From positions 11,085 to 75,084 of the forward strand of contig JADZEH010000004.1 of NCBI GenBank assembly GCA_020850635.1: 64,000 bases of DNA. Direction: 5' to 3'. The translations under genes and the position numbers were made by a program. How positions within the stretch are numbered: the stretch's first letter is position 1; each line of letters starts with the position of its first letter. The notes below the pieces were generated by a model. The model was not told where the DNA came from. It was given only the letters and a program-made list of their open reading frames with translations, and did no database searches. Positions 19,886-38,065 of this stretch are shown here, one piece after another. This DNA comes from Candidatus Doudnabacteria bacterium (GTDB lineage: Bacteria; Patescibacteriota; Doudnabacteria; UBA920).

Positions 19886-22800
19886 TTACTCGGAAGAGGG
19901 TAAACTCTCTTCTGATAGAGGAGGCGATTGTTCTGGTTGTTCTTCAACAGATGGTGCTGGTTCTTCAACTGGAGGTGATTCTTCTTCTACTAGAGTCTCC
20001 TCTTGAGGAGGCGCTGTTTCATTTGCTGGTTCATTATTTCCCTCAGACGGCTCCTGTTCTTCAGAGGCAGTATTTTCACCAAGAACTTCGGGATTCAATT
20101 CAGTATCATCTTCAACTTCTTCAGCTAGTCCCTCGCTTTCAAAAATCTTTGGATTTTTCACCGCAAGAGCAATCCAGCTCAAAGGCACATCTTTTGGAGC
20201 GGGTTTATTAAGCAAGATTGTAAACCCAAAGACATTCTTCTTTATAACCAAGACTTGAATACCCTGTTCGAATAACTCAATCGCAAGGTCATCTTGTAAC
20301 TTTTGAATTTCTTTAATTTTCTCCACGTCCCCTGTTTTTATAATTTCATTATCAAGTTCACCAGCAATAGAAGCCACAACTACTGGTTGCTCTATATATT
20401 CTTTATCGAACTTAATATCGACACTAGTATGGCCAGCTTTTACCAAAGCGAAGCCCGCAGTATCGTTATTGAGATATGGACGACCAAAGAATGTGACGTC
20501 GCTAAGCATATCAATAATTCCACCAAGCTTACCAATAGCCTCAACTCTCAAACCACCTGTTGTAACTTGAGGAGAAATCACTTCAAACGCAGCACTAACT
20601 CGATCTGTAAACAACTCAGCGGACACACCTTGCCCCGCTGCTACTTTTTCAGCTTTAATATGTCTTAAGAAGACTAAGATTTTTTCGTCAGTAGTTAAAG
20701 AATCATCGATGTCATTATCTAAACCCGTACCAACTAGAGCTTGAGATTCCACACCAGATTCTTCAACCAAACCTTCGGTACTGTCTTCAATTAAATCACC
20801 AACAGCAGAGACCGAGATACGCATCTCTTGCATAAGTTGTTCAATTGGTAAACCAGAGAAGTTACCATGTTCAACGAAAATACTTACTTCACCACACTTG
20901 GTTGTCTCAGGTAGACCCTCACCCATAGCTGAACATACTGCCATGTCTTGTTCAGGAATACTATCTGTTAAAGCTTTACCGATAGTTGGTCCAGCGCCAG
21001 TGGCGCGCATGGCATACCCCGGAATTGACGCCGAGGTCAAATAATCTCCTGCCTTTACTGGTCCGTTTTCCATACTAAATTTCACGGGAATACGACCAGT
21101 CAACGCTATTGCGAAACCATCTTCAGCGTGCAAGCCCAGAATTATACCTGGTTGAGTTGAAACTACACCAAGTATTCCCCCGCTATACCTACGAGTTGAA
21201 CGTACTACGTCGTCGCCATCTCCATTTTTGTCGATAACTACAACTTGACCAGGCTCGAGAGCCTCTGTTGAGTAATAATATTCAGCTAAGTCAGCACCAC
21301 CGGTAAAACCAACTTCAATCCCAGTACTTCCTACGGCTGTAATACCATCAAGAACAATTTCCTGACGAATAGCGTACAATTGGTTGGCAACATAATCCAA
21401 ACCTTGCCCAAGACGGACATCTTCGGTAATAGCTGTAAAGTGAGCTTCAGACGCTATGATAAAAGTTCGAGTTGAAAGATCCATCGAGACTATATCGTCA
21501 TAATCAGTCCCCGCCCAATCTGTACCATCGTCATCGGTTTGACTGGCTTGACTGTGATAAACGTCCGCAACAATACTTGGACCATCTTGGTGATTATAAC
21601 AAGTTACACCACCAGTATCAGTACCACTATTCGTTCCAATACACAACTGACGAGCTTCCCCCAAAGGAGTTTCTCCTGTAATGCCAATACCACCTACGGC
21701 GTCTGAACCACCATATAACGCCTCGGGGTCAATTTCAAAATCTGCTGAAGTATCCATAGTACACGCCCCTGGTACTGCAGGGGTGAACGTTATAGTATCA
21801 GCGGTGTTGGCCGAAATACGACGAGTCAAACCGACACAGTCCGCATCATCACTACCAGTAATCTCGAGAATCGAACCAGCAAAGTCATTGGCAAACCACG
21901 ACTCCCCAGTATCAGTGACCGAGGTTGAAGTCGCAGAAGTGGCATTGGCAACTGTGATTGTTCTCTTAGTAGCACGAGGACGTTCAATGTTAAAATAACG
22001 GCGAACATAGAGCTGGGTCATAGTGGCTTGAGTTGTTGTTCCCACTATATACTGAACATCATCAATAGCCCCATCCCAGGCATTGGTCACCGCCCCGCAG
22101 TTGGCAGTCACAGTTGTGACACACGAAGCCCCAATAGTCACAATTTGGCTTCCATCAAAAGTTGCAGTAAGACCGGTAGCTGTAGAAAGAGTCATACCTT
22201 GGCCATCAATCCACGAATCTACATCATTGGCATTTGTTCGAGTGATAATTAAATTGTGCCACTGGTTATCGTTATAAGCATAAGTCGAAGTTGCGGTAAT
22301 ATCGTATGAGTTTGCTCCACCACCATCAGGACGAGTCCAGGTGGCGTCATCATCATTTGCCACAACAATCTGACCACTAGTATTCATGTAAGCAACCACG
22401 CATCCAATTGCCTGCCCAGGGGTTGCTGTAACACACTTTTCAAAAAGAGTATCAATTGCACCAGAAGGAGCTGTTGTTGAATGCTTAAACCATAGGGAAA
22501 TAGTCCAACCGACAGTCGACATGTTAAACGCCGTGTCTAGGTCACACGTATTATCCTGGTTAGCATCTGAACATAAGAAATCATCAGTATTATCAAATTG
22601 TATAGCCTTTCCTTGAACACCATCTACGCCAAGAGTAGGAGTCCCATTAATTGCCATATCAGTATTTAAAATAGAGACATCTTGGGCCTGTGTGCCCGAA
22701 GTATCATCCATTGGCAAAACCATGTCATTAATGCCGGCAAGCATCATCATTGGGGTCTGGCGCGTAGAATTATAGTACTTAACCCAACCAAGCAGCTGAG

Positions 22801-25800
22801 TGGTATGCTCGTGAAGCTCTGCCATACCTAAACTATGCCCCACGTAAATGACGTCTTCTGTGTTTAAGTTATTCGAAGCACGTTCCGCGATCTCCAAGTT
22901 ATCGGGCTTCCCCGTAAGAACATCGAATGCCGAGGTTGCTAGAGCTGGTCCAGTCGCACGAGCTTCATCCCACCGACGACTGAAAGTACCGTTAATTTCA
23001 CTGGCTTTGTCTGTATCAATTGTATCCCATCGTTCAAGTTGGTCTGAAGTACTATTCAAAGCATACATAAAACCTCGACTTGAAATTACCACCGCATTAT
23101 AGTCATCAGCTGTAACGTCTGAATACTGGTTCAATACCAAACCAGAAGGGTTAATAATCGTTACGCCAGAGTCAGTAGCTAGCCCAATAAAGACTTTTCC
23201 ATATCCAGGGTTAGTGTTAGTCGCGGCACCTAAAGCTGTCACTGCGGATTGGGTACGAGACATGACTACCGCGTGCACATCATTAACTCGCTCCCACTCA
23301 GCTTGTGTACCAGTAGGTGAAATTTCAAGTTTAACATTACTATCAACGTTATATGTCACTGCAGAATTACGACCACTAATTCCGACACCAGCAGCGGCAC
23401 GAGAAGTTCCGTTATAATTCCACATACGATCGTTCACGAAGTCGATGGCATATAAACCACCAGCAGATGAACCGTTTGCTCCAACATAAATAACACCGTT
23501 AAGCGCTATTACCGACGATGGGTCGTTGTTTGTATCAGCACCAAGCGCATAACCATCAGAATGTTGAGAAAACTTCATCCACATGTCGTTTGTCGCCGCA
23601 TCAAAAATATATAAAGCGTCTGTGGTAACCACCAAAAGAGCTTTTCGAGGGAATGAGGCTTTATAACAACGGTCGTCACTTGAAATAACACAAGTGTCAC
23701 TCGCACTGTCATCTAGTGCTTCTGCGTACCAAGAAAGGTTGTCAGTAGTTGCCCAGTCAATCCAACGACCGCCATCACTATCTCCTGAAGTATCATAAAC
23801 AAATACATCCTTAATTCCCGTAAGCGGTGTGTGATCATCAGAACCCTTGCTGATAATCTCACCATACACCGAAGCATTTCCACGTCTTTCCTCAGACCCA
23901 ACCTGTAACAATCGTTCAGTAGCTGCGCTTGCACTAATTGACGAAGTTCCAATACCAACGCGACCATCACCGTCCACAATAAACGGTGTGGTATCACCAG
24001 AGACGTCATCAATTCTCAAAGCATAGTTACCCGTGCCAGTCGCACGGTGATCAATATATAAACCTGTGGTTGCACTTGCAGTGCCAGTATTATCAATACG
24101 CAATACCGAACCAGTATTAGCAGCATCGGAACCGCTAAGCGTCAACTTTGCCAAAGCCCCAGTAAGTGCTGTTGATGATGAAGCGATTGCTAAACCATTT
24201 CCACTAGTTAATGCATTCGCGGTTATATTTAATCCGACCTCACTATCAATAGTATTAGCGGTAACGTTAACGGCATTAGCCGCGTTTGATTGTTGAACAA
24301 TGTCGAGCCCGACAACAGCCGCGGTCGTGTTAGCTTGGTCAACTTGTACCACAAACGCGCTGTCAGTACCGGCCGAGGATGGGTTGGTGAAGACGAGAGA
24401 ATCGTCTGCTGTTGTAAGTGAGATAGTTGCGTTAGTGCCGTCGACATCAGCAGCATAAGAAGACTGTAAAGTTGAGCCACCTCCACCTGTTTCATCAGCA
24501 GCACAACCCCAACGTCCCCCACCAGTCGCCCATTTTAGAATTTGAGTATCAGCACAATCCACTAGCGAATCATGTTGAACGTAACCACTGGCATCAGTAA
24601 GGTTGACGTTCGATGATCCCGCTTGAATGACACCTGAGACATCGGCGGAGGCGAACAAAGCAGCACCAGCACCGCTTACACTCCAATGTGCATCGTTCAA
24701 AACTAAATCTGAACCAGAGCTAGCACCTACTGTAATTGTGCCGCCAGTTGAGTTTCCAATGGTAATGGTCTGAGTACGAGCGGCTGTTCCAATTAAAATA
24801 GAACCGTTACCAGAAGTTGAAGTTCCAACATCTAATGAAATATTACCAGCGGTACCAGCTGAAGCGTTGCCAGTGATAATTGTTACCCCGCCAGTTGAAG
24901 TTGTTCCAGTTCCAGAGTTAAGTGTTACCAAACCCGAAGCACCCGAACCGTTGTTAGCTGAACCGATTGTAGTCGCGGCACGTGAAGTTAAGTTTGGTCC
25001 AAAGTCTAATAAAGAAAAATTATCAGCATCAATATCTTGAGCCCATGGTGTTTGACTTCCGCCGCCACAACCCGTACAAGTTCCGGTAACTGTAAGGTTA
25101 CCGTCAAAGAAAACATCACCATCAACTTCTAAGTCATCTGTTACGAGCAAGTCATCTGCCGCACCAAGAGAGTGATTGGTTGTGCCACTGCCAAGTCTTG
25201 AGTATGTCGTCGCTGTCGCTCCACCACCTTGCAATACTCCAGAAATAGTTAACGCTCCTGTAACATTTGTATTATCTTGGAGTTCTAAAGTACCACCCGC
25301 AGAATCTAAATTAATATTTCCAGAAGTTGTAGTCTGTAGAATCAAAGCTGAACTGGTAGAGTTAATCACTCTCGATGAACCGCCCGCTCCCGCTAAATTT
25401 ATCCCTACCCCAGTTCCTGCTTGTGTCACAACTAAGGCTGCACCAGTAACGTTTGCTCCGCTTGAAACTTGTAACGCATTGTTACTTGATGACACGCTTG
25501 GTGAATAATCAATCTTCGCACCAGGATTCGTTGTGGTTCCAGGTGCGTACGCAATATCAATTCTACCATCACCAACAACGTTGTTGGCGTTAAAAGCAAA
25601 AGCAGAAGCAACAAGTTGTTTACGCGGTGACATTTCACCATCGTAAGCAACACCAGTCGGAGCGAAGTTCACCGACAAATACAAAGCACCACCAGTCACA
25701 TCAAAAGTTATTGCATTACATGTCCCAAGTTTGACATTAAAAACACCACTAGTAACGGTTGGTTTGGCACATGAACCACTTGGTTGATCATAAGTTTCTG

Positions 25801-26047
25801 TCCACAACAAACTTCCCGCCGTTGGATCATCATAAATTTTAAATTCCATGGCGTAAGTTCCATTCGCCACATTCGTACTAGTACTAACTGCTGTGAGTTT
25901 ACCTTGGAAATTAATTAGCTTTGGGAAAGCAGCGTTCGCTGTTGACTGAAATGAGTACGCTGTTACAAAACCAACCACTATCAAAAGCATGCAGGTTAGC
26001 GCTGCGACGGTTTTAATTATCTGGTTGTGGTTTATTTTTAAACTCAT
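19886..26047 (-). CDS. Giant (2053 aa) secreted tail-fibre-like surface protein
   Basis: Signal peptide (...AYSFQSTANA), Gly/Thr/Ser-rich beta-repeats including GDGRVGIGTSSISAS...LLQVG, and a concanavalin/LamG-like jelly-roll (TISLWFKHSTTAPSGAIDTLF...ITRTNANDVDSWIDGQGM). Also a GHSLG nucleophile-elbow motif (VIYVGHSLGMAELHEH), a C-terminal DLAEYYYS...GQVVVID block and a Pro/Glu-rich acidic tail. Confidence 0.8.
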   Translation of the reverse strand: MSLKINHNQIIKTVAALTCMLLIVVGFVTAYSFQSTANAAFPKLINFQGKLTAVSTSTNVANGTYAMEFKIYDDPTAGSLLWTETYDQPSGSCAKPTVTSGVFNVKLGTCNAITFDVTGGALYLSVNFAPTGVAYDGEMSPRKQLVASAFAFNANNVVGDGRIDIAYAPGTTTNPGAKIDYSPSVSSSNNALQVSSGANVTGAALVVTQAGTGVGINLAGAGGSSRVINSTSSALILQTTTSGNINLDSAGGTLELQDNTNVTGALTISGVLQGGGATATTYSRLGSGTTNHSLGAADDLLVTDDLEVDGDVFFDGNLTVTGTCTGCGGGSQTPWAQDIDADNFSLLDFGPNLTSRAATTIGSANNGSGASGLVTLNSGTGTTSTGGVTIITGNASAGTAGNISLDVGTSTSGNGSILIGTAARTQTITIGNSTGGTITVGASSGSDLVLNDAHWSVSGAGAALFASADVSGVIQAGSSNVNLTDASGYVQHDSLVDCADTQILKWATGGGRWGCAADETGGGGSTLQSSYAADVDGTNATISLTTADDSLVFTNPSSAGTDSAFVVQVDQANTTAAVVGLDIVQQSNAANAVNVTANTIDSEVGLNITANALTSGNGLAIASSSTALTGALAKLTLSGSDAANTGSVLRIDNTGTASATTGLYIDHRATGTGNYALRIDDVSGDTTPFIVDGDGRVGIGTSSISASAATERLLQVGSEERRGNASVYGEIISKGSDDHTPLTGIKDVFVYDTSGDSDGGRWIDWATTDNLSWYAEALDDSASDTCVISSDDRCYKASFPRKALLVVTTDALYIFDAATNDMWMKFSQHSDGYALGADTNNDPSSVIALNGVIYVGANGSSAGGLYAIDFVNDRMWNYNGTSRAAAGVGISGRNSAVTYNVDSNVKLEISPTGTQAEWERVNDVHAVVMSRTQSAVTALGAATNTNPGYGKVFIGLATDSGVTIINPSGLVLNQYSDVTADDYNAVVISSRGFMYALNSTSDQLERWDTIDTDKASEINGTFSRRWDEARATGPALATSAFDVLTGKPDNLEIAERASNNLNTEDVIYVGHSLGMAELHEHTTQLLGWVKYYNSTRQTPMMMLAGINDMVLPMDDTSGTQAQDVSILNTDMAINGTPTLGVDGVQGKAIQFDNTDDFLCSDANQDNTCDLDTAFNMSTVGWTISLWFKHSTTAPSGAIDTLFEKCVTATPGQAIGCVVAYMNTSGQIVVANDDDATWTRPDGGGANSYDITATSTYAYNDNQWHNLIITRTNANDVDSWIDGQGMTLSTATGLTATFDGSQIVTIGASCVTTVTANCGAVTNAWDGAIDDVQYIVGTTTQATMTQLYVRRYFNIERPRATKRTITVANATSATSTSVTDTGESWFANDFAGSILEITGSDDADCVGLTRRISANTADTITFTPAVPGACTMDTSADFEIDPEALYGGSDAVGGIGITGETPLGEARQLCIGTNSGTDTGGVTCYNHQDGPSIVADVYHSQASQTDDDGTDWAGTDYDDIVSMDLSTRTFIIASEAHFTAITEDVRLGQGLDYVANQLYAIRQEIVLDGITAVGSTGIEVGFTGGADLAEYYYSTEALEPGQVVVIDKNGDGDDVVRSTRRYSGGILGVVSTQPGIILGLHAEDGFAIALTGRIPVKFSMENGPVKAGDYLTSASIPGYAMRATGAGPTIGKALTDSIPEQDMAVCSAMGEGLPETTKCGEVSIFVEHGNFSGLPIEQLMQEMRISVSAVGDLIEDSTEGLVEESGVESQALVGTGLDNDIDDSLTTDEKILVFLRHIKAEKVAAGQGVSAELFTDRVSAAFEVISPQVTTGGLRVEAIGKLGGIIDMLSDVTFFGRPYLNNDTAGFALVKAGHTSVDIKFDKEYIEQPVVVASIAGELDNEIIKTGDVEKIKEIQKLQDDLAIELFEQGIQVLVIKKNVFGFTILLNKPAPKDVPLSWIALAVKNPKIFESEGLAEEVEDDTELNPEVLGENTASEEQEPSEGNNEPANETAPPQEETLVEEESPPVEEPAPSVEEQPEQSPPLSEESLPSSE

Positions 26048-26059: not shown

Positions 26060-26266
26060 CTAGCTTTGAACCTCCGGTGCGGCCACAATAAAACCGCCTA
26101 AAAGCAAAATGGTGTCTTTTGCAAAACGGCGGTCACGACGATTACCAATGCGCACACCGGCAAGAACACCATCGCGTTCCCAATTGCGAATAGTGTTCGG
26201 ATGAACATTCAAGACTTCAGCAGCCTGACGTACAGTCAACAATAACGGTAAATTTCCTATGGACAT
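26060..26266 (-). CDS. Small excisionase-family helix-turn-helix DNA-binding protein
   Basis: LTVRQAAEVLNVHPNTIRNWERDGVLAGVRIGNRRDRRF matches the excisionase/MerR-superfamily HTH pattern. Lies 12 nt upstream of the giant gene. Confidence 0.7.
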   Translation of the reverse strand: MSIGNLPLLLTVRQAAEVLNVHPNTIRNWERDGVLAGVRIGNRRDRRFAKDTILLLGGFIVAAPEVQS

Positions 26267-26425: not shown

Positions 26426-26454
26426 ATTATAGCAAAAATTACGACAATTGTCAA
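26426..26454 (-). promoter_or_regulatory. Consensus sigma70 promoter TTGACA-N17-TATAAT (minus strand), extended -10 TGCTATAAT
   Basis: Reverse complement of 26426-26454 is TTGACAattgtcgtaatttttgcTATAAT, about 160 nt upstream of the HTH gene. Flanking context TCATTGACAA...TTTTTGCTATA is shared with the 38037-38065 promoter. Confidence 0.55.
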
Positions 26455-30942: not shown

Positions 30943-32034
30943 TTAAAATGTACCTGTGGCGATGTATGTGATGTTCGTACTATAACTACCAGCCTCTGTG
31001 TTTCCCGCGATGTTGGCGAGATAAAAAGCACTTACAGTTTCAGTATTAGTTGGTGTTGTTCGTGAAATAATCGTCGTGGTCGTGCCAGCAACAAAGGCCC
31101 AATCTCGGTTTCCTGGTGTAGAGTTGTGATCATAACCAGTTGCCACGGTAGAAGAGCCATTCGTGGAAATACCTAAACCAAACTCTTCTGCAGACTGAGT
31201 ACCATCAGCATCGTTAGTAATAGCGGCAACATCAATAGTATTACCACCACTGGTTAAAGTGGCTCCATTGTAACTTAGGACATACCCACTAGCGGCGTTA
31301 GTAGCAACAGCTAAAGTATGAGCGGCGGCAGAGTCTGTACCAGAACCATTAGTATCACCAGTAGCAAATCGGGCTGCTGTTGAACTAAGTGAGCCAAACC
31401 CGATTGTTGTATCAGAAACGCTAAAGGTAATTGTAGGGTCAACTGTAGCTGTAACGTTAACCTGATCTTCTGTAATAATATCTACAGCAATTGTCCCTGT
31501 GTCACCAAAGCTACCACTAATGGCAATCGTATCGTCATCATCAATTGCGCCATTACTAATTTGGTTTGTGCCAGTTGCCTGACTTACAGCATTTGTACCA
31601 ATACGGAAACGGACGCAACGCCCAGCCGTGACTGTACCAGTACCTGAAGTTAGAGTTACAGTTGTTGCGCTGTCCCCATCTGCTCCCCAAGTCGCACCAG
31701 AGGGAGAAGCGGCCAAAGTTCTTTCTGTAAATGATGCTGTACTACAGTTACTTGAGTCACCTTCAGCAAAGTCAATATCAGTATGAACTATATTGGTAAC
31801 GTTTGTGAAGTCAGCTGAAAAAGTTAAAATAATAGTTTGACCCGCGGTTAATCCGGTAGGTGTGACAAACTTGATTTCATGATTAGCTGCCTCGCTCGCC
31901 TTTAAACGAGACATGACGTCAGATAAACTTGTCACTGAAGCGGCTTGTGCAACAGGTACTCCCTGAAAAACAACGCTAGCAACCAATGCCACCATCGCAA
32001 TCTTACTATATATACGCTTCGTTTTTTGTTTCAT
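30943..32034 (-). CDS. Secreted protein sharing the C-terminal domain of 28528-29616 (WxL-like candidate; paralog B2)
   Basis: Signal peptide ...VPVAQA; the C-terminal block AHTLAVATNAASGY...AGSYSTNITYIATGTF aligns with AHTVTVSTNGVSGY...SGSYQNILTYITSAQY of B1. Confidence 0.55.
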   Translation of the reverse strand: MKQKTKRIYSKIAMVALVASVVFQGVPVAQAASVTSLSDVMSRLKASEAANHEIKFVTPTGLTAGQTIILTFSADFTNVTNIVHTDIDFAEGDSSNCSTASFTERTLAASPSGATWGADGDSATTVTLTSGTGTVTAGRCVRFRIGTNAVSQATGTNQISNGAIDDDDTIAISGSFGDTGTIAVDIITEDQVNVTATVDPTITFSVSDTTIGFGSLSSTAARFATGDTNGSGTDSAAAHTLAVATNAASGYVLSYNGATLTSGGNTIDVAAITNDADGTQSAEEFGLGISTNGSSTVATGYDHNSTPGNRDWAFVAGTTTTIISRTTPTNTETVSAFYLANIAGNTEAGSYSTNITYIATGTF

Positions 32035-32060: not shown

Positions 32061-32090
32061 ATTATAGCAGATTTTTTGACTTTTGTCTAA
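32061..32090 (-). promoter_or_regulatory. Promoter for the B2-A3 pair: TTAGACA-N17/18-TGCTATAAT (minus strand)
   Basis: Reverse complement reads TTAGACAaaagtcaaaaaatctgcTATAAT, 27 nt upstream of the 32034 start. Confidence 0.45.
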
Positions 32091-32105: not shown

Positions 32106-35100
32106 TTACTCCACCAAGCTAACTTCAGTTCCAGATTCTACTGAATCTTGAACCTCGGGTTCTTCTTGGGTTTCCTCTGGTTCAGTAACAGGCATTTGTT
32201 CATCGGGAGATTCTTCGCTTACAACGCCGGCAACAGACCCTTCGTCAATTACTGGTTCCGGGTCCTCTGATAATGAATCCGATTCTGACGACTGCTGTCC
32301 AGCAATAACTAACTTGATAGTGCTAGTATTACCATTTGACACAGTCAGTTTTGCATCCTGTCCTGCAAACGCATGCCAGTTAAATTCAACTGCTTCGTTT
32401 TGATCGTCGCTAATCTTAATGGTAAAGCCAGATGAGTCTTCATCAACCACCGTGTAGCGGAAACTATTATCCAATGCGGCTTCACCACGAGGACTAATCG
32501 TGACGATTGGCTGATACTCATACGGCTTAGTAAAGTTTACTCTCACCTCTGTTTCCCCAGAAAGAATTTTTACCTGACCTACTGAGTCTGAGGTTAAATA
32601 CAAATGACCCTTGATGACAATCGGTGTATCAATGTTTCCACCTAAATTGCCTTGTAAACTATTTACTGAAACTTGTAAGCTCTCAATTCTGTCTTGTTGT
32701 TCGTGAATCGCATTAACTAAGATCGGAGTGAAACCAACATAGTTCACAGATTTTAATCCAGTCTTTGGATCAATCTTAACTAGCTCAGGTGAAATCACTT
32801 CAACCTCTTGTGCCAGAAAACCAATTCTCAAAGCATCATCAGTTTGAGACTTCCAACGGAAATTAACCCCCCTAAAATTAAGAACTTTCTCTAAGGCACT
32901 TTCAATTGTTGCTACATCCTCTTTAAGACGTTGGTCAGAGGTACACACCAAAGCGGTACTCGTTGGATCAATATCGCATGACCCATCAGAATCAGTAAAA
33001 CGAGCCACCACACCTGCCGCACCCAACACCACATGAAGCGGATAACTAGGAGTGGTTATGCCGATACCGACATTTCCCGCGCTAAATATTGCAGCATAAT
33101 TATCTGTACCACCTGAAGCACTTACAGACAAACCCACATTGACTGCAGTAGTTCCCGTATGTGTATTAGCGACTTGAAGACCATATGTGGTTTGGCTCGC
33201 GCCATTATTGGAACCCGAGGTAGCAATATTTAAGACCGTTTGATTAGTTAAAGCCTTGGAGGTACCAGAAATTTGTAAGTCAACTAGCTTGCCAGAAGTT
33301 AAGTTGGATGACGCAGCATACAATCCAGTACCAGTGGTTAAAGAGTTAACATTTAGTGCTAAGGCAGAAGCGGTTGTAACTTGAGTCGTATTTGCAGAAG
33401 TAACCGACATTGTTCCTGAACTTTGAATATATCCCTTGACCGCAGCAATTGCACCAGAGGAGTTGACTTGGAATAAGTCACCACTTCCAACGGTCAGCAA
33501 CGCGGTAGGTGAAGCATCTCCAATCCCGACATTGCCACCCATAAACTGAGCAGCGTAATTATTTGTCGCACCGGTTTGAGCGTTTACAGTTAGACCAAAA
33601 CTATTAGTTGCTGTCGAAACAGCACCGGCTGAAATCAAAATACCATGGGTATTCGTAATAGTTGCGTTCGTACTTTTGACTGGAGCACCTGTTATTCCTA
33701 AAGTCGCCGCGTTGGTTAATGTGGAAGCTCCGTTAAATGCATAAGTCGGTGCATTGATTAATACTGCGCGTTGTGTCGCTAAGCTACCAGTACTAAAAGT
33801 TACAGTTCTGTTGAGTGCAAAATTTATATCCGCGGCTTCGATTGTAGAATCTAAGTTAACATGTGCTGGCCCTGTAACGGCGAGTAAATTTGGGGAGCCA
33901 GAACCAGATGGATCGGGGGCCATAATTAATCCGCCAGTTTCGTTGACAGTAGCCAAAGCAGAACCGCCTGAATTTTGCCACTCCTGCAAATTTGCCGACT
34001 GACCACCACTTGAAGCCGATACAGCAATATTATATTTGTCAGACAAATACTTTTCTACGGATTCTTTGTCGGCAATACTTAACGCTGAGCTATAGACTAT
34101 AATTTCCGCGATATCTCCCTCCCAATATTGTGATACTCCTAAGTAGTGATAAGTATCCCCAATCCAATTAAAAGAACTATTTGCAGTTCCCACGATTGTT
34201 ATAATACTATAAGTATTTGCCGGTTTTTGAATATTAAGAACTGAGGTATAAGTACCATTTGTATAACCCTGACCACTAGCAATGTCGCCGTTTGTACCTC
34301 CTAATGAATTAATCAAATCAGTACCAGTTTCACCAAAATAATCAAAACCGGTGCTCTCTCCAACTGGTGACTCCCCAGCAGGCGAACTCCCATCAACATG
34401 TCTGATTACCATTATCAGAGTCCTAGAATTAGTCACTACTGAATCCATAGCCAAAAAATCATCGGTACCATCGAAGCGAACCACAGGCTTGCCGTTAGTT
34501 CCACTAGCAATATAAAGAGGCTGACTTGCTCCAGTTCCTTGAGTAGCATCATTACCCGACCCGCTTGAATTAGTCCAGCTTGCAACAGGGTCATTATTAT
34601 TTAAAGACAAACTATCAGCCTTTAACCACACCACTAAACCACTGATATCATCAGGTTCAATTCCACTACCTAAAGGCGAACCTTTAACAATTATGCCTTT
34701 AGTATTCGCTGTGCCTGTTACAACTTTCAGCCTTGCATCAGGTATGGTAGTGCCTATACCCACGCTTCCATTTTCAAAGATGGCAGCATAGTTATTAGTT
34801 CCACCTGAAGCAGAAGCATATAAACCGACATTAGTTGAGTCTGTCCCTGTATGAGTATTAGTAATATATCCACTGTAAGTTGTTTGGGTGGAAGTAGCAT
34901 TGGCTCCAGATAAACTAAGAGATAAAAGTTTTTGTGTGTTGCTTGCAGCAGCGGTTGTGTTGGCTGATAAAGCTAAACCTGTCCCACCTGCTAAAGTGTC
35001 CCAGGCCCAATTCTGCTGATAATTGGTATTATCAATAGAATTTGTTGCTGTGGCGGCAGTCAACCCTGACAACGAGCCACCGCCTACACCGTCACAAGCC

Positions 35101-37670
35101 TGCCATTCGAAATCGCCAGTAGTTGATTCGTAAGTTAAACATTCTTCATCAACAGAAGAGTCCACTGCTTTTAAATCTGCTTCAGTAACTTTCTCATCAA
35201 CAATCGCGGTGGCTCCAGTACTATCAATCACAATATCTCCACTCATTGCTACGGGATTATAGTTTGTACCATCCGCCACTAGAATAAATCCAGAGGTATT
35301 TGTGCCCATAAATAAATCATCGCCCGAAATAGTAAGATCGCCATCTAGTTGGACGTTACCAACACTGGTGATAAGAACGCGTTCCGTACCAGCCATACTA
35401 ATAGATAAATCATCTGATCCACCAAGCACAGCAATCTGCACTTTCTCAACACCAGCCTTATAAATGTAATACCCAGCTTGTGAAGCAGCGTCTCCATCAA
35501 CCTGAATTAATGCATGCCCAGCAGCATTAGTGTACGACATACCTACTGCCGCGGTTCCCACAACGCTCAGACCTGCAAAAGTTGGCAATGAAGTCGTTGT
35601 TAAATTTTGTCCTGTATTAAAAGTTAATTGCGAATCGCTAATCGAGTCGGCAGCAACAGAAATGCTAACAGCAGCGGTTTCTGATCCTGAACCACTTACA
35701 GAAATCTGGCTGTCGCCAGCAATAGTCGCAACATAGTTGCCAGCAGTATCAGTACCCAGCGCTACACTATTGGATTGAATCGTAGTTGCACCAGTATTAT
35801 CGATTGCAATATCACCAGACACCGACACAAACACAGGAACGCCACTGACATTACCAATAAGCAACTGTCCGCTCGTTGGCGCAGCCGTTACCTGCACTGC
35901 CGAAGTTCCATTCCCGTAAACCAAACCATTTAAAGAGAGAGACGACGTTCCTGTTCCACCATTCGAAACAGCAAGTACACCAGTCACATCGGTAGCTAAG
36001 TTAGTTGTACCACCACCAATAGCTCCCCAAGTTGCACCGTTATAGACATTAAATGCATCTGTTGTTGAGTTGTATACTAAAAGACCTGTCGCTGGGCTAC
36101 TAATCGCATCGCGTTCGACAGTCGTCATCCGTGGTGCTAAAAACCCACGTGTGGTTGAATTTGCTTGTAAGATTGCAGAAGCATCCAAAGTGCCTTCACC
36201 AATGAGCAGTTCACTTGAATCAAAACTACTACCTGAGGATACCGAGCTTGAACCAGCAGCACCACGTGCTCCCGTTTCACCAGTTGCCCCCTGTGGACCT
36301 TGTTCGCCCGTGTCCCCTTTGTCACCTTCTAAAAAGTCGAAAAGACCTAAGGCAATAAATCGATTCATCACTCTTGTTACTGCAGTCTCAATAGCACTTT
36401 CACCAAAGTTTACTGTTGTTGTCGGGGTCGGTGGTGTTATTGGTGTTGAGACAATAGGAACTTCTTCTGGCACGTAGACTATCGTAGGTGTTGGCTCTGG
36501 CTCAGAGCAAACAACTAACCAACACAAAACTTTCTCCCACCAAGGAATTTCGGTACTCTCTCCCAAAACACGACCACTATATTGGCCAGTCTCCGCGTTT
36601 GCTATTTTTGTTTGTGCTGAAAAATCATCAACTGTTAATTGAGGAGAAAATCTGTCTTGTAAATATTTACCATTAGTAGAAAAATTTTCAAGCAAGGGAC
36701 TCTGTAGCATGGCAACAGTTACATTGTCTGCTTTTTTAGCCACGATCTCAGCCAGCATCAAAGTCTTGTTAAACAATGTACTTGCACTGACTGCTACACT
36801 ACTATCAACACTCGCAACTATAAACTGACCTTCATTAAATATTTGATTAACAGAAACAGTAACTCTATCTTGCGAAGATACAAGATCATTTACAACAAAA
36901 TTTGCTAAAACAATATCAGCGTTATCGAGTATGTTATTACTAAATTTTTTAACATCTTCTATTGTCACCTTTGGCACACTCACTGTTGGAACAATATTAT
37001 CAAAAGCACGATGATTCTCTAAACTTTGACTAGCAAGGGTTTGCCCTGTAGTTATAAACTGGACAGACCCTGAGAACTGAGCGAGGACCTTGCCATCACT
37101 AACCCAAGTTGCGACTACCGAATCAACAATTCCAGCAACACGATCAAACGCTCCACTAATACTATTTGGTAAATTGCCAATATCGACCAATACCTGCTCA
37201 TACGACAGCTTGATCAAACTTCCTAAAGTTGAACTATTACTCCCTACTTCGGAAACTAATTCTTGTGAATATTGTTTGGAGTATTTCTTTGTGTTCCGGA
37301 TACCGATTGAAGCATGATCAGCAACGAACTGTTCTGCCTTTGATGTTATATCCTGTGCATCATAATAAAGATTTGCAAATTTTCGCTCATGCCACTCACT
37401 AAATTTAGTGAAGGTTACATAGCCTTCATAAATTGATTCTAGAATAAACTTGCTAGTTTTCGCATCGTAATAATTTAGAAATGCCGAGGTGTCTCCAATT
37501 ATGCCATAGGCTTGATTTTGCCAAGAAGAAACTATTGTCCCTGAATTATTAATTGAGGAATACTCTATATTGGATGGTTGGCTGGCGTATACTCTGTTTG
37601 AACTTAGTGACGCACATAATATAACAACAACCAAGAGGCTATAGACAAGTTTATTTATAACTTTCATCAT
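32106..37670 (-). CDS. Giant (1854 aa) secreted phage-tail-fibre-like protein: collagen-like GXY run, tail-fibre repeats, LamG-like domain, C-terminal S74-type intramolecular chaperone domain, acidic tail
   Basis: Signal peptide ...SSNRVYA; GDKGDTGEQGPQGATGETGARGAAG (collagen triplets); repeats GSVGIGTTIPDARLKVV / GNVGIGDASPTALLTVG / GNVGIGITTPSYPLHVV. LamG-like region LVVWLKADSL...YWEGDIAEIIVYSSAL; endosialidase-chaperone motif SDQRLKEDV...RIGFLAQEVEVISPELV. Confidence 0.85.
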   Translation of the reverse strand: MMKVINKLVYSLLVVVILCASLSSNRVYASQPSNIEYSSINNSGTIVSSWQNQAYGIIGDTSAFLNYYDAKTSKFILESIYEGYVTFTKFSEWHERKFANLYYDAQDITSKAEQFVADHASIGIRNTKKYSKQYSQELVSEVGSNSSTLGSLIKLSYEQVLVDIGNLPNSISGAFDRVAGIVDSVVATWVSDGKVLAQFSGSVQFITTGQTLASQSLENHRAFDNIVPTVSVPKVTIEDVKKFSNNILDNADIVLANFVVNDLVSSQDRVTVSVNQIFNEGQFIVASVDSSVAVSASTLFNKTLMLAEIVAKKADNVTVAMLQSPLLENFSTNGKYLQDRFSPQLTVDDFSAQTKIANAETGQYSGRVLGESTEIPWWEKVLCWLVVCSEPEPTPTIVYVPEEVPIVSTPITPPTPTTTVNFGESAIETAVTRVMNRFIALGLFDFLEGDKGDTGEQGPQGATGETGARGAAGSSSVSSGSSFDSSELLIGEGTLDASAILQANSTTRGFLAPRMTTVERDAISSPATGLLVYNSTTDAFNVYNGATWGAIGGGTTNLATDVTGVLAVSNGGTGTSSLSLNGLVYGNGTSAVQVTAAPTSGQLLIGNVSGVPVFVSVSGDIAIDNTGATTIQSNSVALGTDTAGNYVATIAGDSQISVSGSGSETAAVSISVAADSISDSQLTFNTGQNLTTTSLPTFAGLSVVGTAAVGMSYTNAAGHALIQVDGDAASQAGYYIYKAGVEKVQIAVLGGSDDLSISMAGTERVLITSVGNVQLDGDLTISGDDLFMGTNTSGFILVADGTNYNPVAMSGDIVIDSTGATAIVDEKVTEADLKAVDSSVDEECLTYESTTGDFEWQACDGVGGGSLSGLTAATATNSIDNTNYQQNWAWDTLAGGTGLALSANTTAAASNTQKLLSLSLSGANATSTQTTYSGYITNTHTGTDSTNVGLYASASGGTNNYAAIFENGSVGIGTTIPDARLKVVTGTANTKGIIVKGSPLGSGIEPDDISGLVVWLKADSLSLNNNDPVASWTNSSGSGNDATQGTGASQPLYIASGTNGKPVVRFDGTDDFLAMDSVVTNSRTLIMVIRHVDGSSPAGESPVGESTGFDYFGETGTDLINSLGGTNGDIASGQGYTNGTYTSVLNIQKPANTYSIITIVGTANSSFNWIGDTYHYLGVSQYWEGDIAEIIVYSSALSIADKESVEKYLSDKYNIAVSASSGGQSANLQEWQNSGGSALATVNETGGLIMAPDPSGSGSPNLLAVTGPAHVNLDSTIEAADINFALNRTVTFSTGSLATQRAVLINAPTYAFNGASTLTNAATLGITGAPVKSTNATITNTHGILISAGAVSTATNSFGLTVNAQTGATNNYAAQFMGGNVGIGDASPTALLTVGSGDLFQVNSSGAIAAVKGYIQSSGTMSVTSANTTQVTTASALALNVNSLTTGTGLYAASSNLTSGKLVDLQISGTSKALTNQTVLNIATSGSNNGASQTTYGLQVANTHTGTTAVNVGLSVSASGGTDNYAAIFSAGNVGIGITTPSYPLHVVLGAAGVVARFTDSDGSCDIDPTSTALVCTSDQRLKEDVATIESALEKVLNFRGVNFRWKSQTDDALRIGFLAQEVEVISPELVKIDPKTGLKSVNYVGFTPILVNAIHEQQDRIESLQVSVNSLQGNLGGNIDTPIVIKGHLYLTSDSVGQVKILSGETEVRVNFTKPYEYQPIVTISPRGEAALDNSFRYTVVDEDSSGFTIKISDDQNEAVEFNWHAFAGQDAKLTVSNGNTSTIKLVIAGQQSSESDSLSEDPEPVIDEGSVAGVVSEESPDEQMPVTEPEETQEEPEVQDSVESGTEVSLVE

Positions 37671-37918
37671 GCCAGCCTCCTTTCAGATTTTTCTAAAGAA
37701 GCTAGAATGCGACGATGTTTTTGTTCTTGAGACTTTACATAAGACAAAACGGCCTCACGTGTTGTGAGCCAGTCTCGAGATATTTTAATCGCTTTCAGTT
37801 TGCCTTTACGAGCAAGTAAGCTCAGATATTCCTGTGAGTACGGTGTATTTGTCGCCGCTTCACCAATGGAAATCAAAGAACCAGATGCCAAAAAACGGCT
37901 CTTTTCCTGTTCGGACAT
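37667..37918 (-). CDS. Small excisionase-family HTH DNA-binding protein, translationally coupled (ATGA overlap) to the giant gene
   Basis: ISIGEAATNTPYSQEYLSLLARKGKLKAIKISRDWLTTREAV matches the same HTH family as 26060-26266. Its stop overlaps the start of 32106-37670 by 4 nt. Confidence 0.7.
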   Translation of the reverse strand: MSEQEKSRFLASGSLISIGEAATNTPYSQEYLSLLARKGKLKAIKISRDWLTTREAVLSYVKSQEQKHRRILASLEKSERRLA

Positions 37919-38036
37919 TGTCTCTGCTTATGTTTTGTTTTTGTTTCTATCTACGAACTATCGAGCAACCGCGCATTCCTAAACTAATTTTGGCTTAAGC
38001 ATGCACTATCGATCATCCGATACTTTTCTAAATTCA

Positions 38037-38065
38037 GTATAGCAAAAAAAACGTGTTTTGTCAAT
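38037..38065 (-). promoter_or_regulatory. Near-consensus sigma70 promoter TTGACA-N17-TATACT (minus strand), paralogous to 26426-26454
   Basis: Reverse complement is TTGACAaaacacgttttttttgcTATACT, with shared flanks TCATTGACAA and TTTTTTGCTATA. About 120 nt upstream of HTH2. Confidence 0.55.

What the first reader, a model, noticed from the sequence alone, without database searches (positions are those of the whole stretch)
19886..38065. Surface-fibre island: two [promoter - HTH - giant tail-fibre-like protein] modules bracketing a two-family secreted-protein cluster
Seen directly: two units each comprise a near-consensus sigma70 promoter, an approximately 70-85 aa excisionase-family HTH protein, and a secreted giant protein (2053 and 1854 aa). 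One pair has an ATGA start/stop overlap, the other a 12-nt gap. The giant proteins carry phage-tail-fibre hallmarks: GxVGIGTxxP...L.V repeats, a LamG jelly-roll, a collagen GXY run, an SDxRLK...GFLAQEV intramolecular-chaperone domain and acidic tails. Between the units lie five co-oriented secreted proteins from two paralog families. No integrase, terminase, capsid or tail-tube genes are present, so this is not a prophage. It looks like domesticated tail-fibre adhesins paired with a dedicated small regulator. In a T4P-bearing, small-genome organism this is a plausible host- or partner-cell attachment apparatus. The coupling of an excisionase-type HTH to each fibre gene has not, to my knowledge, been characterised.
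Basis: partly seen in the sequence, partly recalled or inferred. Interest (0 to 1): 0.8.

Follow-up and report, generated by a model that had tools for sequence, protein, structure and literature searches.

The report
Pilus operon flanked by HTH-linked giant fibres
In an ultrasmall (CPR) bacterium, a recently described type of pilus operon sits between two genes for giant phage-tail-fibre-like surface proteins, and the small DNA-binding gene in front of each is the detached form of a domain that in many related proteins is fused to the fibre through a membrane helix, an arrangement I could not find described.

Summary
All nine ORFs, both junctions (ATGA overlap, 12-nt gap) and the near-consensus promoters are present. 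The interpretation needs two corrections.

First, the five middle genes are not anonymous. They form a Pam pilus operon, the CPR donor-strand-exchange pilus described in a 2026 preprint. One pilin passes NCBIfam CPR_Pam_pilin_C. A chaperone-like protein models confidently as a two-domain fold with a C-terminal membrane helix, closest to Enterococcus WxLIP and chaperone-usher chaperones. That preprint notes a co-localised "tail fibre-like protein" but does not analyse it.

Second, the small HTH genes are not simply dedicated regulators. Relatives carry the same HTH_17-type domain fused through one membrane helix to the fibre: [HTH×1–3]–TM–ectodomain. HTH2 plus giant2 aligns colinearly, in two cases across the gene junction, with single proteins of 1156–1805 aa. 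The window therefore holds split forms of this architecture.

Both giants carry phage-type C-terminal autoproteolytic chaperone domains: Peptidase_S74 in giant2, and a phi29-gp12-like domain in giant1. No phage genes were found.

HTH–giant adjacency occurs in about one third of related loci. A LytR_C gene is the more constant partner. Function is inferred, not shown.

The parts
38036..38064 (-). Promoter-like site P1 (TTGACA-17-TATACT, TG-extended -10), about 110 nt upstream of HTH2
   Evidence: 11/12 match. Sequence read. Preceded by the terminator-like hairpin 38110-38087 of the upstream CAP-domain gene.
37667..37918 (-). HTH2, 83 aa. A stand-alone, divergent HTH_17-type domain with no TM helix. 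It is the detached form of the N-terminal cytoplasmic domain found in HTH-TM-fibre proteins.
   Evidence: HTH_17 18.9 bits, below cut-off; relatives P0229 and P0228 reach 36.9 and 36.1 bits; hhalign against the HTH1 family gives 80% probability; fused relatives.
32106..37670 (-). giant2, 1854 aa. It has an N-terminal signal sequence, a helical region, a Pro/Thr linker, a collagen GXY×9 run, beta-rich repeats with three G.VGIG motifs, a LamG-like region, a Peptidase_S74 intramolecular chaperone, module B and an acidic tail.
   Evidence: Start overlaps the HTH2 stop as ATGATGA, with GGAGG 6 nt upstream.
36246..36326 (-). Collagen-like GXY×9 run in giant2 (aa 449-475). It implies a trimeric fibre.
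   Evidence: regex. Pfam Collagen E=0.005, below cut-off; weak Scl1/Scl2 matches.
32775..32939 (-). Peptidase_S74 intramolecular chaperone / autocleavage domain of giant2 (aa 1578-1632). It starts at S1578-D-Q-R-L-K1583, the Ser...Lys spacing.
   Evidence: 54.5 bits against a cut-off of 22; many tail-fibre PHROGs, best E=8.6e-27; motif position.
32334..32636 (-). Module B in giant2 (aa 1679-1779). A C-terminal domain shared with giant1 and most relatives.
   Evidence: 28% over 151 aa, E=2e-8; profile E=4.6e-27; no PDB sequence match.
32061..32089 (-). Promoter-like site P2 (TAGACA-17-TATAAT, TG-extended), 27 nt upstream of the first pilin gene
   Evidence: 11/12. Sequence.
30943..32034 (-). 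Pam pilin (PamA/B-like), 363 aa, with a signal sequence
   Evidence: NF058581 CPR_Pam_pilin_C, 71.3 bits against a cut-off of 55, aa 225-363.
29844..30920 (-). Pam chaperone-like / WxLIP-like protein, 358 aa, with a signal sequence and a C-terminal TM helix
   Evidence: paralog of the 313-aa protein, with conserved PWQ and a hydrophobic C-terminus. Fold inferred from the paralog.
29632..29843 (-). Highly structured intergenic region inside the pilus cluster. It contains a short GC hairpin plus U-run, two long hairpins, and then a TATGGTATAAT -10-like box.
   Evidence: MFE -85.9 kcal/mol, z=-8.7, 0 of 200 shuffles fold as well; no Rfam match. Sequence.
28528..29631 (-). Second pilin-like protein, 367 aa
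   Evidence: C-terminal domain 29% identical over 139 aa to the Pam pilin, E=5e-6. No NCBIfam hit.
27585..28526 (-). Pam chaperone-like / WxLIP (DUF916) protein, 313 aa. Two beta-sandwich domains plus a C-terminal TM helix (aa 278-312).
   Evidence: homologs carry PF06030. AF2 pLDDT 93.2. Foldseek top hits are E. faecium WxLIP 9i25/9i1y (E=7e-11), then CfaA, Caf1M, FimC, CsuC and RbmA.
26567..27577 (-). Third chaperone-like paralog, 336 aa, with a C-terminal TM helix
   Evidence: weak fn3_5.
26507..26537 (-). Terminator-like hairpin closing the pilus cluster
   Evidence: 12-bp stem followed by a T-run.
26426..26454 (-). Promoter-like site P3 (TTGACA-17-TATAAT, TG-extended), about 150 nt upstream of HTH1
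   Evidence: 12/12; shares TCATTGACAA...TTTTTGCTATA with P1 at the same spacing.
26060..26266 (-). HTH1, 68 aa. A BldC/Xis-like HTH_17 (MerR-type) DNA-binding protein. Its TAG stop is in frame with giant1.
   Evidence: the profile hits Xis gp37 (4j2n, E=1e-5) and BldC (6amk, 6ama).
19886..26047 (-). giant1, 2053 aa. It has an N-terminal hydrophobic segment (aa 8-26), an 'FQGKLT' N-domain, beta-rich repeats, a LamG region, a phi29-gp12-like autochaperone (module A), module B and an acidic tail.
20960..21307 (-). Module A of giant1 (aa 1581-1696). It starts at the ADLAEYY motif and resembles the autocleaving C-terminal chaperone of the phi29 gp12 pre-neck appendage (Peptidase_G2 type).
   Evidence: the profile against PDB hits 3gqh_A from its residue 1 (DFAEYF), E=0.012, and 6qz9 at E=0.016; hhalign 91% probability. 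Pfam Peptidase_G2 only 12.3 bits; phrog_19602 tail fiber, E=1e-5; 44 viral loci.
20132..20539 (-). Module B of giant1 (aa 1837-1972)
19053..19823 (-). LytR_C-domain membrane protein, 256 aa. It is the most constant neighbour of module-A giants.
   Evidence: PF13399, 45.7 bits; a related ORF is present in 70 of 80 related genome loci; it usually lies directly downstream of the giant.
17886..19046 (-). 386-aa Ig-domain (Big_13) protein with N- and C-terminal hydrophobic helices. A recurrent downstream partner and a possible pilus or fibre anchor.
   Evidence: Relatives in 21 of 80 loci. Same order in L003 and L075.

Best explanation
**What it is.** This is a chromosomal cell-surface appendage locus of a CPR bacterium (the MAG is labelled Candidatus Doudnabacteria). 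It has at least three transcription units.

**Centre: a Pam pilus operon.** It encodes two pilins and three membrane-anchored WxLIP/PapD-like chaperones. By analogy with Mycosynbacter, these build thin donor-strand-exchange pili without an usher.

**Each side: a strong promoter driving a small HTH_17 protein and a giant exported fibre.**
- The fibres are inferred to trimerise. Giant2 has a collagen run. Both have C-terminal intramolecular-chaperone domains of phage tail-fibre type: S74 in giant2, phi29-gp12-like in giant1.
- They are then inferred to cleave off that chaperone.
- Giant1 is followed by a LytR_C membrane protein and an Ig-domain membrane protein, which probably hold or position the fibre.

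**The HTH genes.** They are detached versions of a domain that in many related proteins is the cytoplasmic N-terminus of the same polypeptide: [HTH×1-3]-one TM helix-fibre. That relationship is shown.

The following is inferred. The HTH is the DNA-binding output module of the fibre unit. In fused proteins it acts as a membrane-tethered, ToxR-like one-component regulator. In this split form it acts as a soluble autoregulator. Its synthesis is translationally coupled to the fibre (ATGATGA overlap for HTH2/giant2), so expression of fibre and pilus genes is tied to fibre production.

Pili, fibres and the neighbouring type IV pilus would together serve attachment to a partner cell.
For: **Pam operon identity.**
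- NF058581 passes its cut-off.
- The preprint describes the same gene kinds, including chaperones with a C-terminal TM helix and a co-localised tail fibre-like protein.
- The AF2 model has pLDDT 93. Foldseek hits WxLIP and chaperone-usher chaperones.
- Chaperone homologs carry PF06030.

**Fibre nature.**
- S74 at 54.5 bits.
- phi29 gp12 match starting exactly at the autocleavage motif.
- Tail-fibre PHROGs.
- GXY×9 run.

**Split/fusion relation.**
- Four giant1 homologs carry N-terminal MerR/HTH_17 domains followed by a TM helix.
- HTH2 finds 2052 protein clusters. Of the best 150, 106 are 200 aa or longer, and 91 of those have a TM helix after the HTH. Twenty-six are 1000 aa or longer, of which 7 carry module A and 6 carry S74.
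- Concatenated HTH2+giant2 aligns colinearly with P0339, P0324 and P0307. For P0324 and P0275 the N-terminal alignment runs across the gene junction.
- P0091 has a different DNA-binding domain (2× Phage_int_SAM) at the same position before the TM helix.

**Locus conservation.**
- L005 and L001 show the same [HTH-giant]/pam layout.
- Nine loci have a divergent HTH between the giant and the pam genes.

**Not phage.**
- HTH2-type is absent from 2.9 million viral contigs.
- The window context is housekeeping.

**Transcription units.** Promoters and terminators bracket the three units.
Against: - No experiment bears on DNA binding, cleavage, trimerisation or surface location.
- HTH2 itself is below Pfam and NCBIfam cut-offs.
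- Twenty-five of 40 related giants with a complete 5' end have no detectable HTH nearby. One is L003, which carries a 55%-identical homolog of giant1 in the same gene order. The HTH is therefore dispensable for the fibre.
- HTH1-type small genes also precede many unrelated, non-membrane ORFs in metagenomes.
- The promoter spacers are 17 bp and no shared operator-like repeat was found beyond the core promoter. A regulatory target is therefore not identified.
- The giant1 autochaperone assignment is marginal by sequence (Pfam 12.3 bits). The AF2 model of that region failed (pLDDT 48).
- Whether the giants' N-terminal segments are cleaved or remain as anchors was not computed.
- No physical link between fibres and Pam pili is shown.
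Confidence: 0.6

Rival explanations
1. HTH1 and HTH2 are ordinary soluble, locus-specific transcription factors. They have no physical or ancestral link to the fibre proteins. The fused proteins in relatives are incidental gene fusions.
For: - HTH1 is BldC/Xis-like, with no membrane segment.
- Each HTH is the first gene behind a strong promoter.
- In 9 related loci an HTH gene is divergently transcribed from the giant, the classic regulator layout.
- Twenty-two of the best 150 HTH2 relatives are stand-alone proteins shorter than 130 aa.
Against: - Fusion is the majority form for the HTH2 family, not an oddity. Ninety-one of 106 relatives of 200 aa or more have HTH followed by one TM helix.
- The alignments run across the window's gene junction.
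- An unrelated DNA-binding domain occupies the same position in P0091.
Confidence: 0.2
2. The cytoplasmic HTH is a contact sensor output. Host binding pulls on the giant fibre. The autoproteolytic module behaves like a Notch or adhesion-GPCR cleavage site. The signal reaches the DNA-binding domain by release or by a conformational change. In the window, sensor and effector have been separated.
For: - The architecture is cytoplasmic DNA-binding domain, single TM helix, giant adhesin-like ectodomain.
- The ectodomains repeatedly contain self-cleaving modules: S74, gp12-like, and an intein/Hint domain in P0248.
- The N-terminal DNA-binding domains are interchangeable.
Against: - This is purely architectural. 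No protease, cleavage site or target genes are identified.
- In phages the S74 and gp12 domains are folding chaperones, not sensors.
- The split form in the window cannot work this way without a protein-protein contact, and giant1 has only about 7 (giant2 essentially no) cytoplasmic residues ahead of its hydrophobic segment.
Confidence: 0.1
3. The HTH domain is not a regulator but a structural cytoplasmic module. It might tether the nucleoid or the gene locus to the site of fibre insertion, or simply serve as a folded N-terminal cap for a signal-anchor.
For: - Tandem copies (2-3) are common.
- The domain precedes very diverse ectodomains, including small ones.
- From general knowledge, not tested here: MerR-like HTH domains do act as chromosome anchors in RacA of Bacillus.
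Against: - Stand-alone forms such as HTH1 and HTH2 could not tether anything to the membrane.
- Divergent HTH genes at pam promoters look regulatory.
Confidence: 0.07
4. It is a prophage remnant, a tailocin-like element or a mobile island. On this view the tail-fibre genes and excisionases are what is left.
For: - Tail-fibre PHROG hits and excisionase-family HTH hits.
- Module A occurs in 44 viral contigs at 31-44% identity.
- GC content is slightly raised over the giants, 0.43-0.45 against about 0.40.
Against: - No integrase, terminase, capsid, tube or sheath gene among the ORFs scanned.
- The giants have export signals.
- The layout recurs in CPR genomes: 293 relatives were found among species-representative genomes, and almost all 80 fetched loci are CPR MAGs or carry evidently automatic labels.
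- HTH2-type is absent from IMG/VR.
- The middle genes are a pilus operon.
Confidence: 0.03

Closest known systems
Pam pilus system of Ca. Mycosynbacter amalyticus (Troman et al., bioRxiv 10.64898/2026.03.03.709456)
   Same: - CPR-specific operon of Sec-exported two-domain pilins plus PapD/FimC-like chaperones that keep a C-terminal membrane helix.
- A tail fibre-like protein is co-localised.
- One window pilin passes the NCBIfam Pam pilin model.
- The chaperone fold is confirmed.
   Different: - The genome is labelled Doudnabacteria. The preprint reports mainly Saccharimonadia and Microgenomatia.
- There are five genes here, not about seven.
- No PamT-like tip pilin was recognised and PamR is uncertain.
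- There are two flanking giants, each with an HTH gene, which the preprint does not mention.
- No ATP synthase genes lie next to it in this window.
WxL gene clusters of Enterococcus and other Firmicutes (WxL proteins plus DUF916/DUF3324 WxLIP; PMC10599100; PDB 9i25, 9i1y)
   Same: - The window's chaperone-like proteins are structurally closest to WxLIP (E=7e-11).
- Their homologs carry PF06030.
- Both are membrane-anchored by a C-terminal helix and sit next to secreted partner proteins.
   Different: - No WxL-domain Pfam hit and no LPXTG protein here.
- The partner proteins are Pam pilins.
- The window protein itself is just under the PF06030 cut-off (25.6 vs 27.3 bits).
Phage tail fibres and tailspikes with C-terminal intramolecular chaperones (endosialidase Peptidase_S74; phi29 gp12 Peptidase_G2)
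   Same: - Giant2 has a full S74 domain with the Ser...Lys motif.
- Giant1's module A aligns from the first residue of the released gp12 chaperone.
- Both also have trimer-type repeats.
   Different: - The genes are cellular, carry export signals, and are 2-3 times longer.
- The chaperone domain is followed by a further domain (module B) and an acidic tail.
- There is no virion context.
- The gp12-type assignment fails the Pfam cut-off.
Membrane-bound one-component regulators (ToxR, CadC, TcpP, VtrA)
   Same: In the fused relatives: a cytoplasmic N-terminal DNA-binding domain, a single TM helix and an extracytoplasmic domain in one polypeptide.
   Different: - The DNA-binding domain is HTH_17/MerR-type, often in tandem, not an OmpR-type winged helix.
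- The ectodomain can be a fibre of several thousand residues.
- In the window the two parts are separate genes.
BldC and phage Xis small MerR-like DNA-binding proteins
   Same: HTH1 is the same size and fold family. Its profile hits Xis gp37 (4j2n) and BldC (6amk, 6ama).
   Different: - It is below the BldC family cut-off (23.8 vs 77 bits).
- There is no recombinase partner.
- Its genomic role is tied to a giant surface protein.

Membership tests
Pam pilus system | [quoted passage not shown] | tested here: met
   30943-32034 scores 71.3 bits on NF058581, cut-off 55. The second pilin (28528-29631) is linked only by BLASTP, E=5e-6.
Pam pilus system | PapD/FimC-like two-domain chaperone retaining a C-terminal transmembrane helix | tested here: met
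   AF2 pLDDT 93.2 with helix 278-312. Foldseek hits WxLIP, CfaA, Caf1M, FimC and CsuC, E from 7e-11 to 1e-6.
Pam pilus system | Pilins and chaperones together in one operon in a CPR genome, all with export signals | tested here: met
   Signal sequences were judged by eye, not with SignalP.
Pam pilus system | Tip pilin (PamT) and RbmA-like terminator/anchor (PamR) | tested here: inconclusive
   No single-domain pilin was found. RbmA is among the fold hits for the chaperone paralog. The 386-aa Ig protein with a C-terminal helix is a candidate only.
Pam pilus system | Assembly into filaments by donor-strand exchange | not testable with these tools
   Needs multimer modelling or cryo-EM.
Peptidase_S74 tail-fibre chaperone | S74 domain above cut-off, with the nucleophile Ser and a Lys five residues on | tested here: met
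   Giant2 aa 1578-1632, 54.5 bits against 22. S1578...K1583. Cleavage itself was not tested.
Peptidase_G2 / phi29 gp12 autochaperone | Pfam PF11962 above cut-off | tested here: not met
   Giant1 module A scores 12.3 bits against 25. Relative P0123 scores 24.8. The remote match is supported by PDB profile E=0.012 and hhalign 91%. So it resembles the family, but membership is not shown.
HTH_17 / excisionase-family DNA-binding domain | Domain model above cut-off | tested here: met
   HTH1 scores 38.9 > 27 on HTH_17 and 36.1 > 28.8 on TIGR01764. HTH2 alone is not met (18.9 and 18 bits), although relatives reach 36.9.
Excisionase (functional) | Partner integrase or recombinase and attachment sites | tested here: not met
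   No recombinase among the window ORFs scanned.
MerR-family regulator | C-terminal dimerisation coiled coil and effector domain; 19-20 bp promoter spacer | tested here: not met
   The proteins are 68 and 83 aa with no such domain. The promoter spacers are 17 bp.
ToxR-like membrane-bound one-component regulator | DNA-binding domain, TM helix and sensor in one polypeptide | tested here: not met
   The window has separate genes. The feature is met in relatives such as P0275, P0307, P0324, P0339, P0081 and P0131.
WxL cluster | DUF916 (PF06030) protein plus WxL-domain proteins and a small LPXTG protein | tested here: inconclusive
   PF06030 scores 25.6 against 27.3 in the window and is present in homologs. 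No WxL or LPXTG hit was found.
Prophage | Integrase, terminase, capsid, tail tube | tested here: not met
   Only the 64-kb window was examined.

The most novel reading that the evidence does not exclude
[HTH]n-TM-ectodomain proteins would be a large, undescribed class of surface-to-DNA signalling proteins. The HTH2 query alone found at least 2052 clusters at 50% identity. On this reading a giant adhesive fibre with a self-cleaving module is the sensor, and a cytoplasmic HTH_17 domain (or, interchangeably, an integrase-SAM domain) is the output. That would give genome-reduced epibionts, which have few two-component systems, a direct way to sense host contact. The window would show the system caught in its two-gene form next to the pilus it controls.
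Probability: 0.12. Interest if true: 0.9.

Novelty: new variant of a known kind. Interest (0 to 1): 0.62.

Why it matters
How CPR/Patescibacteria find and hold their host cells is a central open question for a group that may make up a large share of bacterial diversity.

The Pam pilus was identified only in 2026. Its constant neighbour, a tail fibre-like protein, was left unexplained. This locus shows several things about that neighbour:
- It belongs to a family of giant exported fibres.
- These fibres use phage-type self-cleaving folding domains.
- They have a very constant LytR_C partner.
- They are evolutionarily welded, by fusion, adjacency or divergent placement, to a DNA-binding domain on the cytoplasmic side of the membrane.

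This yields concrete, testable candidates for regulating host attachment. It also provides a simple sequence signature (HTH-TM-ectodomain) for finding further surface proteins.

If the HTH proves to be a transcriptional output, these would be the first membrane-tethered regulators with a fibre as ectodomain.

Tried and rejected
1. **AF2 of the giant1 C-terminal region** (aa 1560-1990, 13-sequence alignment). Mean pLDDT was 48, so the model was unusable and no fold search was run on it.
2. **PDB sequence searches.** Searches with both pilins and with module B gave nothing meaningful. No sequence match to a Pam pilin structure was found in the copy searched.
3. **The search for related loci with the broad module A and B alignments.** A narrower alignment worked.
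4. **The search for homologous proteins with HTH1.** Only 3 hits were returned, so the HTH1 family size was not measured this way.
5. **Metagenome scan from the HTH1 side**. The pattern picked up generic HTH_17 genes in many contexts. Only the closest relatives and 6 fused ORFs fit the fibre link, so HTH1-type adjacency is weaker evidence than HTH2.
6. **Search for shared operator-like repeats** in the intergenic regions. Only the core promoter is shared.
7. **Rfam over the island.** No hits.
8. **A 'VLG[AE]x[ST]' motif after the TM helix.** It is only weakly enriched: 8 observed against 2.4 expected, and 11 against 6.3. It was dropped as a feature.
9. **Taxon names for the fused proteins.** None were available, so 'CPR-wide' is not proven for the HTH2 family.
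10. **The high-GC stretch at 42975-47117.** I suspected 23S rRNA. It is a PurL gene.
11. **Readthrough of the in-frame TAG between HTH1 and giant1.** This was considered. There is no evidence for recoding, and the stop is kept in the close relative L075.

Full report
**Observation check.**

The finding is accurate at its coordinates. On the minus strand lie giant1 (19886-26047, 2053 aa), HTH1 (26060-26266, 68 aa), five genes of 313-367 aa, giant2 (32106-37670, 1854 aa) and HTH2 (37667-37918, 83 aa).

HTH2 and giant2 overlap as ATGATGA, with a GGAGG 6 nt upstream of the giant2 start. HTH1 ends in TAG, 12 nt before the giant1 ATG. The two are therefore in frame.

The promoter scan gives a 12/12 consensus at 26454-26426 and 11/12 at 38064-38036. 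A third 11/12 site lies at 32089-32061, in front of the middle cluster. All three have a TG-extended -10, lie on the coding strand and are intergenic. Terminator-like hairpins lie at 38110-38087 and 26537-26507. The region thus reads as three transcription units.

The listed 'hallmarks' are real but divided between the giants:
- Peptidase_S74 (54.5 bits) and a nine-triplet GXY run are in giant2 only.
- The LamG hit is in giant1 and is borderline.
- G.VGIG motifs occur once in giant1 and three times in giant2.
- Both tails are acidic.

**Source and context.**

The proteins match a MAG labelled Candidatus Doudnabacteria bacterium exactly (MCC7356076-84; contig of 79.5 kb). The rest of the window carries:
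- a type IV pilus cluster (PilB, PilM and others);
- tRNA-Ile and tRNA-Ala;
- a 16S rRNA gene;
- NusA, ClpP, RNase Y and a PurL gene.

No phage structural or recombinase genes appear among the ORFs scanned.

**The middle cluster is a Pam pilus operon.**

The 363-aa protein passes NCBIfam NF058581, 'CPR_Pam_pilin_C' (71.3 bits, cut-off 55). That model name led to a 2026 preprint (10.64898/2026.03.03.709456). The preprint solved two pilins, PamA and PamB, of Ca. Mycosynbacter amalyticus by cryo-EM. It proposes usher-less donor-strand exchange driven by PapD/FimC-like chaperones that keep a C-terminal membrane helix.

The window evidence fits this description:
- The second pilin shares the C-terminal domain with the first.
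- The three other proteins are paralogs with a signal sequence and a C-terminal hydrophobic helix.
- Homologs of the 313-aa protein mostly carry PF06030 (DUF916, WxL-interacting protein).
- Its AF2 model (pLDDT 93) has two beta-sandwich domains and a terminal helix.
- By Foldseek it is closest to Enterococcus faecium WxLIP (9i25, 9i1y; E=7e-11). Chaperone-usher chaperones (CfaA, Caf1M, FimC, CsuC) and RbmA follow.

The cluster is therefore a member of a system that is already described. It also links that system structurally to the WxL clusters of Firmicutes.

Inside the cluster, the 212-nt spacer at 29632-29843 folds into three strong hairpins (z=-8.7) and matches no Rfam family.

**The giants.**

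The two giants share only a repeat stretch and a C-terminal domain, module B.

Giant1 has 129 homologs in the protein collection. Nearly all are 1200-3600 aa and unannotated. Of these, 102 carry module A and 79 carry module B.

A profile of module A matches the released C-terminal autochaperone of the phi29 gp12 appendage. The match starts from its first residue: DFAEYF in gp12 against ADLAEYY in giant1. The scores are E=0.012 against the PDB and 91% probability by hhalign. Pfam Peptidase_G2 stays below its cut-off.

Giant2 has Peptidase_S74 at the equivalent position. PHROGs place both C-termini at the ends of tail-fibre families. Module A also occurs in 44 viral contigs at 31-44% identity.

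From these matches I infer that the giants are exported trimeric fibres that use phage-type self-cleaving folding domains.

The preprint mentions a 'tail fibre-like protein' as a central neighbour of pamA once, without analysis.

**Locus conservation.**

A scan of species-representative genomes with module A found 293 relatives. The 80 loci fetched are almost all CPR MAGs or carry evidently automatic labels. In these 80 loci:
- A relative of the LytR_C gene (window 19053-19823; PF13399) is present in 70, usually directly downstream of the giant.
- Pam-like pilin or chaperone genes are present in 45, and in 23 of the 30 loci of 18 kb or more.
- The 386-aa Ig-domain protein has relatives in 21.

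Locus L005 repeats the whole layout. L001 repeats the pam, HTH, giant order.

**The HTH genes.**

HTH1 is a BldC/Xis-like HTH_17 protein. HTH2 is a divergent relative (80% by hhalign).

Three independent observations tie these domains to the fibres.

1. *Position.* Of 40 related giants with a complete 5' end:
   - 4 have a co-directional adjacent HTH;
   - 9 have a divergent HTH of about 95 aa, placed between the giant and a divergent pam operon;
   - 2 have one within 2 kb;
   - 25 have none detected.

   Within those loci, nearly all HTH hits sit at a giant or pam boundary.

2. *Fusion.*
   - Four giant1 homologs begin with one or two MerR/HTH_17 domains, a linker and a TM helix.
   - A full-library search with HTH2 found 2052 clusters. 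Among the best 150, 106 are 200 aa or longer and 91 of those have a TM helix just after the HTH.
   - Twenty-six are 1000 aa or longer (up to 6890). Of these, 7 carry module A and 6 carry S74.
   - P0307, P0324 and P0339 are HTH-TM-...-S74-module B.
   - Concatenated HTH2+giant2 aligns colinearly with them. For P0324 and P0275 the N-terminal alignment runs across the window's gene junction.

3. *Domain substitution.* P0091 has two integrase-SAM-type DNA-binding domains in the same place, followed by a TM helix and the giant1-type N-domain.

The split form is not an assembly error. All four cluster members of HTH2 from different assemblies are 83 aa. The junction also has a start-stop overlap with a ribosome-binding site.

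HTH2-type domains are absent from 2.9 million viral contigs.

**Limits of the HTH evidence.**

The link is not obligatory. L003 carries a 55%-identical homolog of giant1 in the same gene order and has no HTH.

The HTH1-type pattern also retrieves generic small HTH genes in front of unrelated ORFs.

No operator-like repeat beyond the core promoter is shared by the promoter regions.

**Mechanism.**

*Shown:*
- gene order;
- domain content;
- the chaperone fold;
- the split/fusion relation;
- the conserved partners.

*Inferred:*
- Sec export.
- Trimerisation and autocleavage of the fibres.
- Retention through the N-terminal segment or the LytR_C and Ig partners.
- DNA binding by the HTH proteins.
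- A regulatory role that couples fibre synthesis to expression of the fibre and pilus genes.
- Joint use of fibres, Pam pili and type IV pili for attachment to a partner cell.

I put about 0.85 on the anatomy and about 0.5 on the HTH being a transcriptional regulator. The overall figure is 0.6.

**Comparison and novelty.**

The pilus operon is a new member of a known system, in a lineage the preprint does not mention.

The fibres are cellular relatives of phage tail fibres. CPR giant surface proteins have been noted before only in general terms (PMC8080830).

I found the HTH-TM-fibre architecture and its split form in no paper in the library searched. The closest analogues are ToxR-type membrane-bound regulators, which differ in DNA-binding fold and in ectodomain.

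I rate the whole as a new variant of a known kind. A minority reading, contact sensing through the fibre, would be categorically new.

Noticed in passing
window 42975-47117 (-): A 1380-aa ORF directly downstream of the 16S gene is a large single-chain PurL (FGAR amidotransferase; GATase_5 332 bits). Its GC content is 0.50-0.55 in a genome of about 0.40. That is odd for a CPR genome and suggests horizontal acquisition. It is not a 23S rRNA gene.
   Followed up: partly
window 47233-48695 (-); 17376-17452 and 17782-17857 (+): The 16S rRNA gene has no 23S gene next to it anywhere in the window. tRNA-Ile(GAT) and tRNA-Ala(TGC), normally in the rRNA spacer, lie 30 kb away on the other strand. The rRNA operon is unlinked.
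   Followed up: no
window 29632-29843 (-): A 212-nt spacer inside the pilus cluster folds into a short terminator-like hairpin plus two long perfect hairpins (MFE -85.9 kcal/mol, z=-8.7). A -10-like TATGGTATAAT box follows. There is no Rfam match. It may set pilin-to-chaperone ratios or split the cluster into two transcripts.
   Followed up: partly
window 19053-19823 (-) and loci L007-L086: A relative of the small LytR_C-domain membrane protein is present in 70 of 80 related genome loci, usually directly downstream of the giant. This is far more constant than the HTH. Some loci have 2-3 tandem copies.
   Followed up: partly
window 26048-26062 (-): HTH1 and giant1 are in the same reading frame, separated only by TAG plus four codons. 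A single base change would recreate an HTH-TM-giant fusion. The close relative L075 keeps a stop, with a 15-nt in-frame gap.
   Followed up: partly
proteins P0229, P0245, P0250, P0291, P0308, P0375: Small proteins of 450-590 aa have the layout 2×HTH, TM, module A, two further TM helices. The gp12-like module is therefore not confined to fibres.
   Followed up: no
protein P0248 (1598 aa): An HTH-TM protein whose ectodomain ends in an intein/Hint splicing domain (75 bits). This is a third kind of self-cleaving module in this family.
   Followed up: no
locus L088 (JGI Ga0214473_10000373), around 7519-13337: The fused HTH-giant P0095 is flanked on both sides by small bAvd / 23S_rRNA_IVP-type genes, as found in diversity-generating retroelements. 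Upstream lies a 743-aa protein with integrase-SAM domains. The fibre may be hypervariable.
   Followed up: no
loci L018, L025, L026, L028, L036, L042, L043, L044, L052, L058: A distinct subfamily of HTH proteins of about 95 aa has a conserved C-terminal motif (DP[LF][LF][KR][LM][QK]GR[AG]A[ST][VL]). It is transcribed divergently from the giant, at the head of the pam pilin genes. These loci also carry pilin-domain proteins of about 920 aa.
   Followed up: partly
locus L056 4808-5239: An HTH2-type protein of 143 aa carries its own TM helix and sits 37 nt upstream of a giant. This is a third way of splitting the unit, after the membrane helix.
   Followed up: no
window 38123-39469 (-): The gene just upstream of the island encodes a 448-aa CAP / YkwD-family secreted protein (70 bits) with its own terminator. 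Whether it belongs to the surface island was not examined.
   Followed up: no
window 26426-26464 and 38036-38074 (-): The two HTH promoters share TCATTGACAA and TTTTTGCTATA at identical spacing, slightly beyond the hexamers. Both have long leaders of about 150 and about 110 nt, whose function is unknown.
   Followed up: partly
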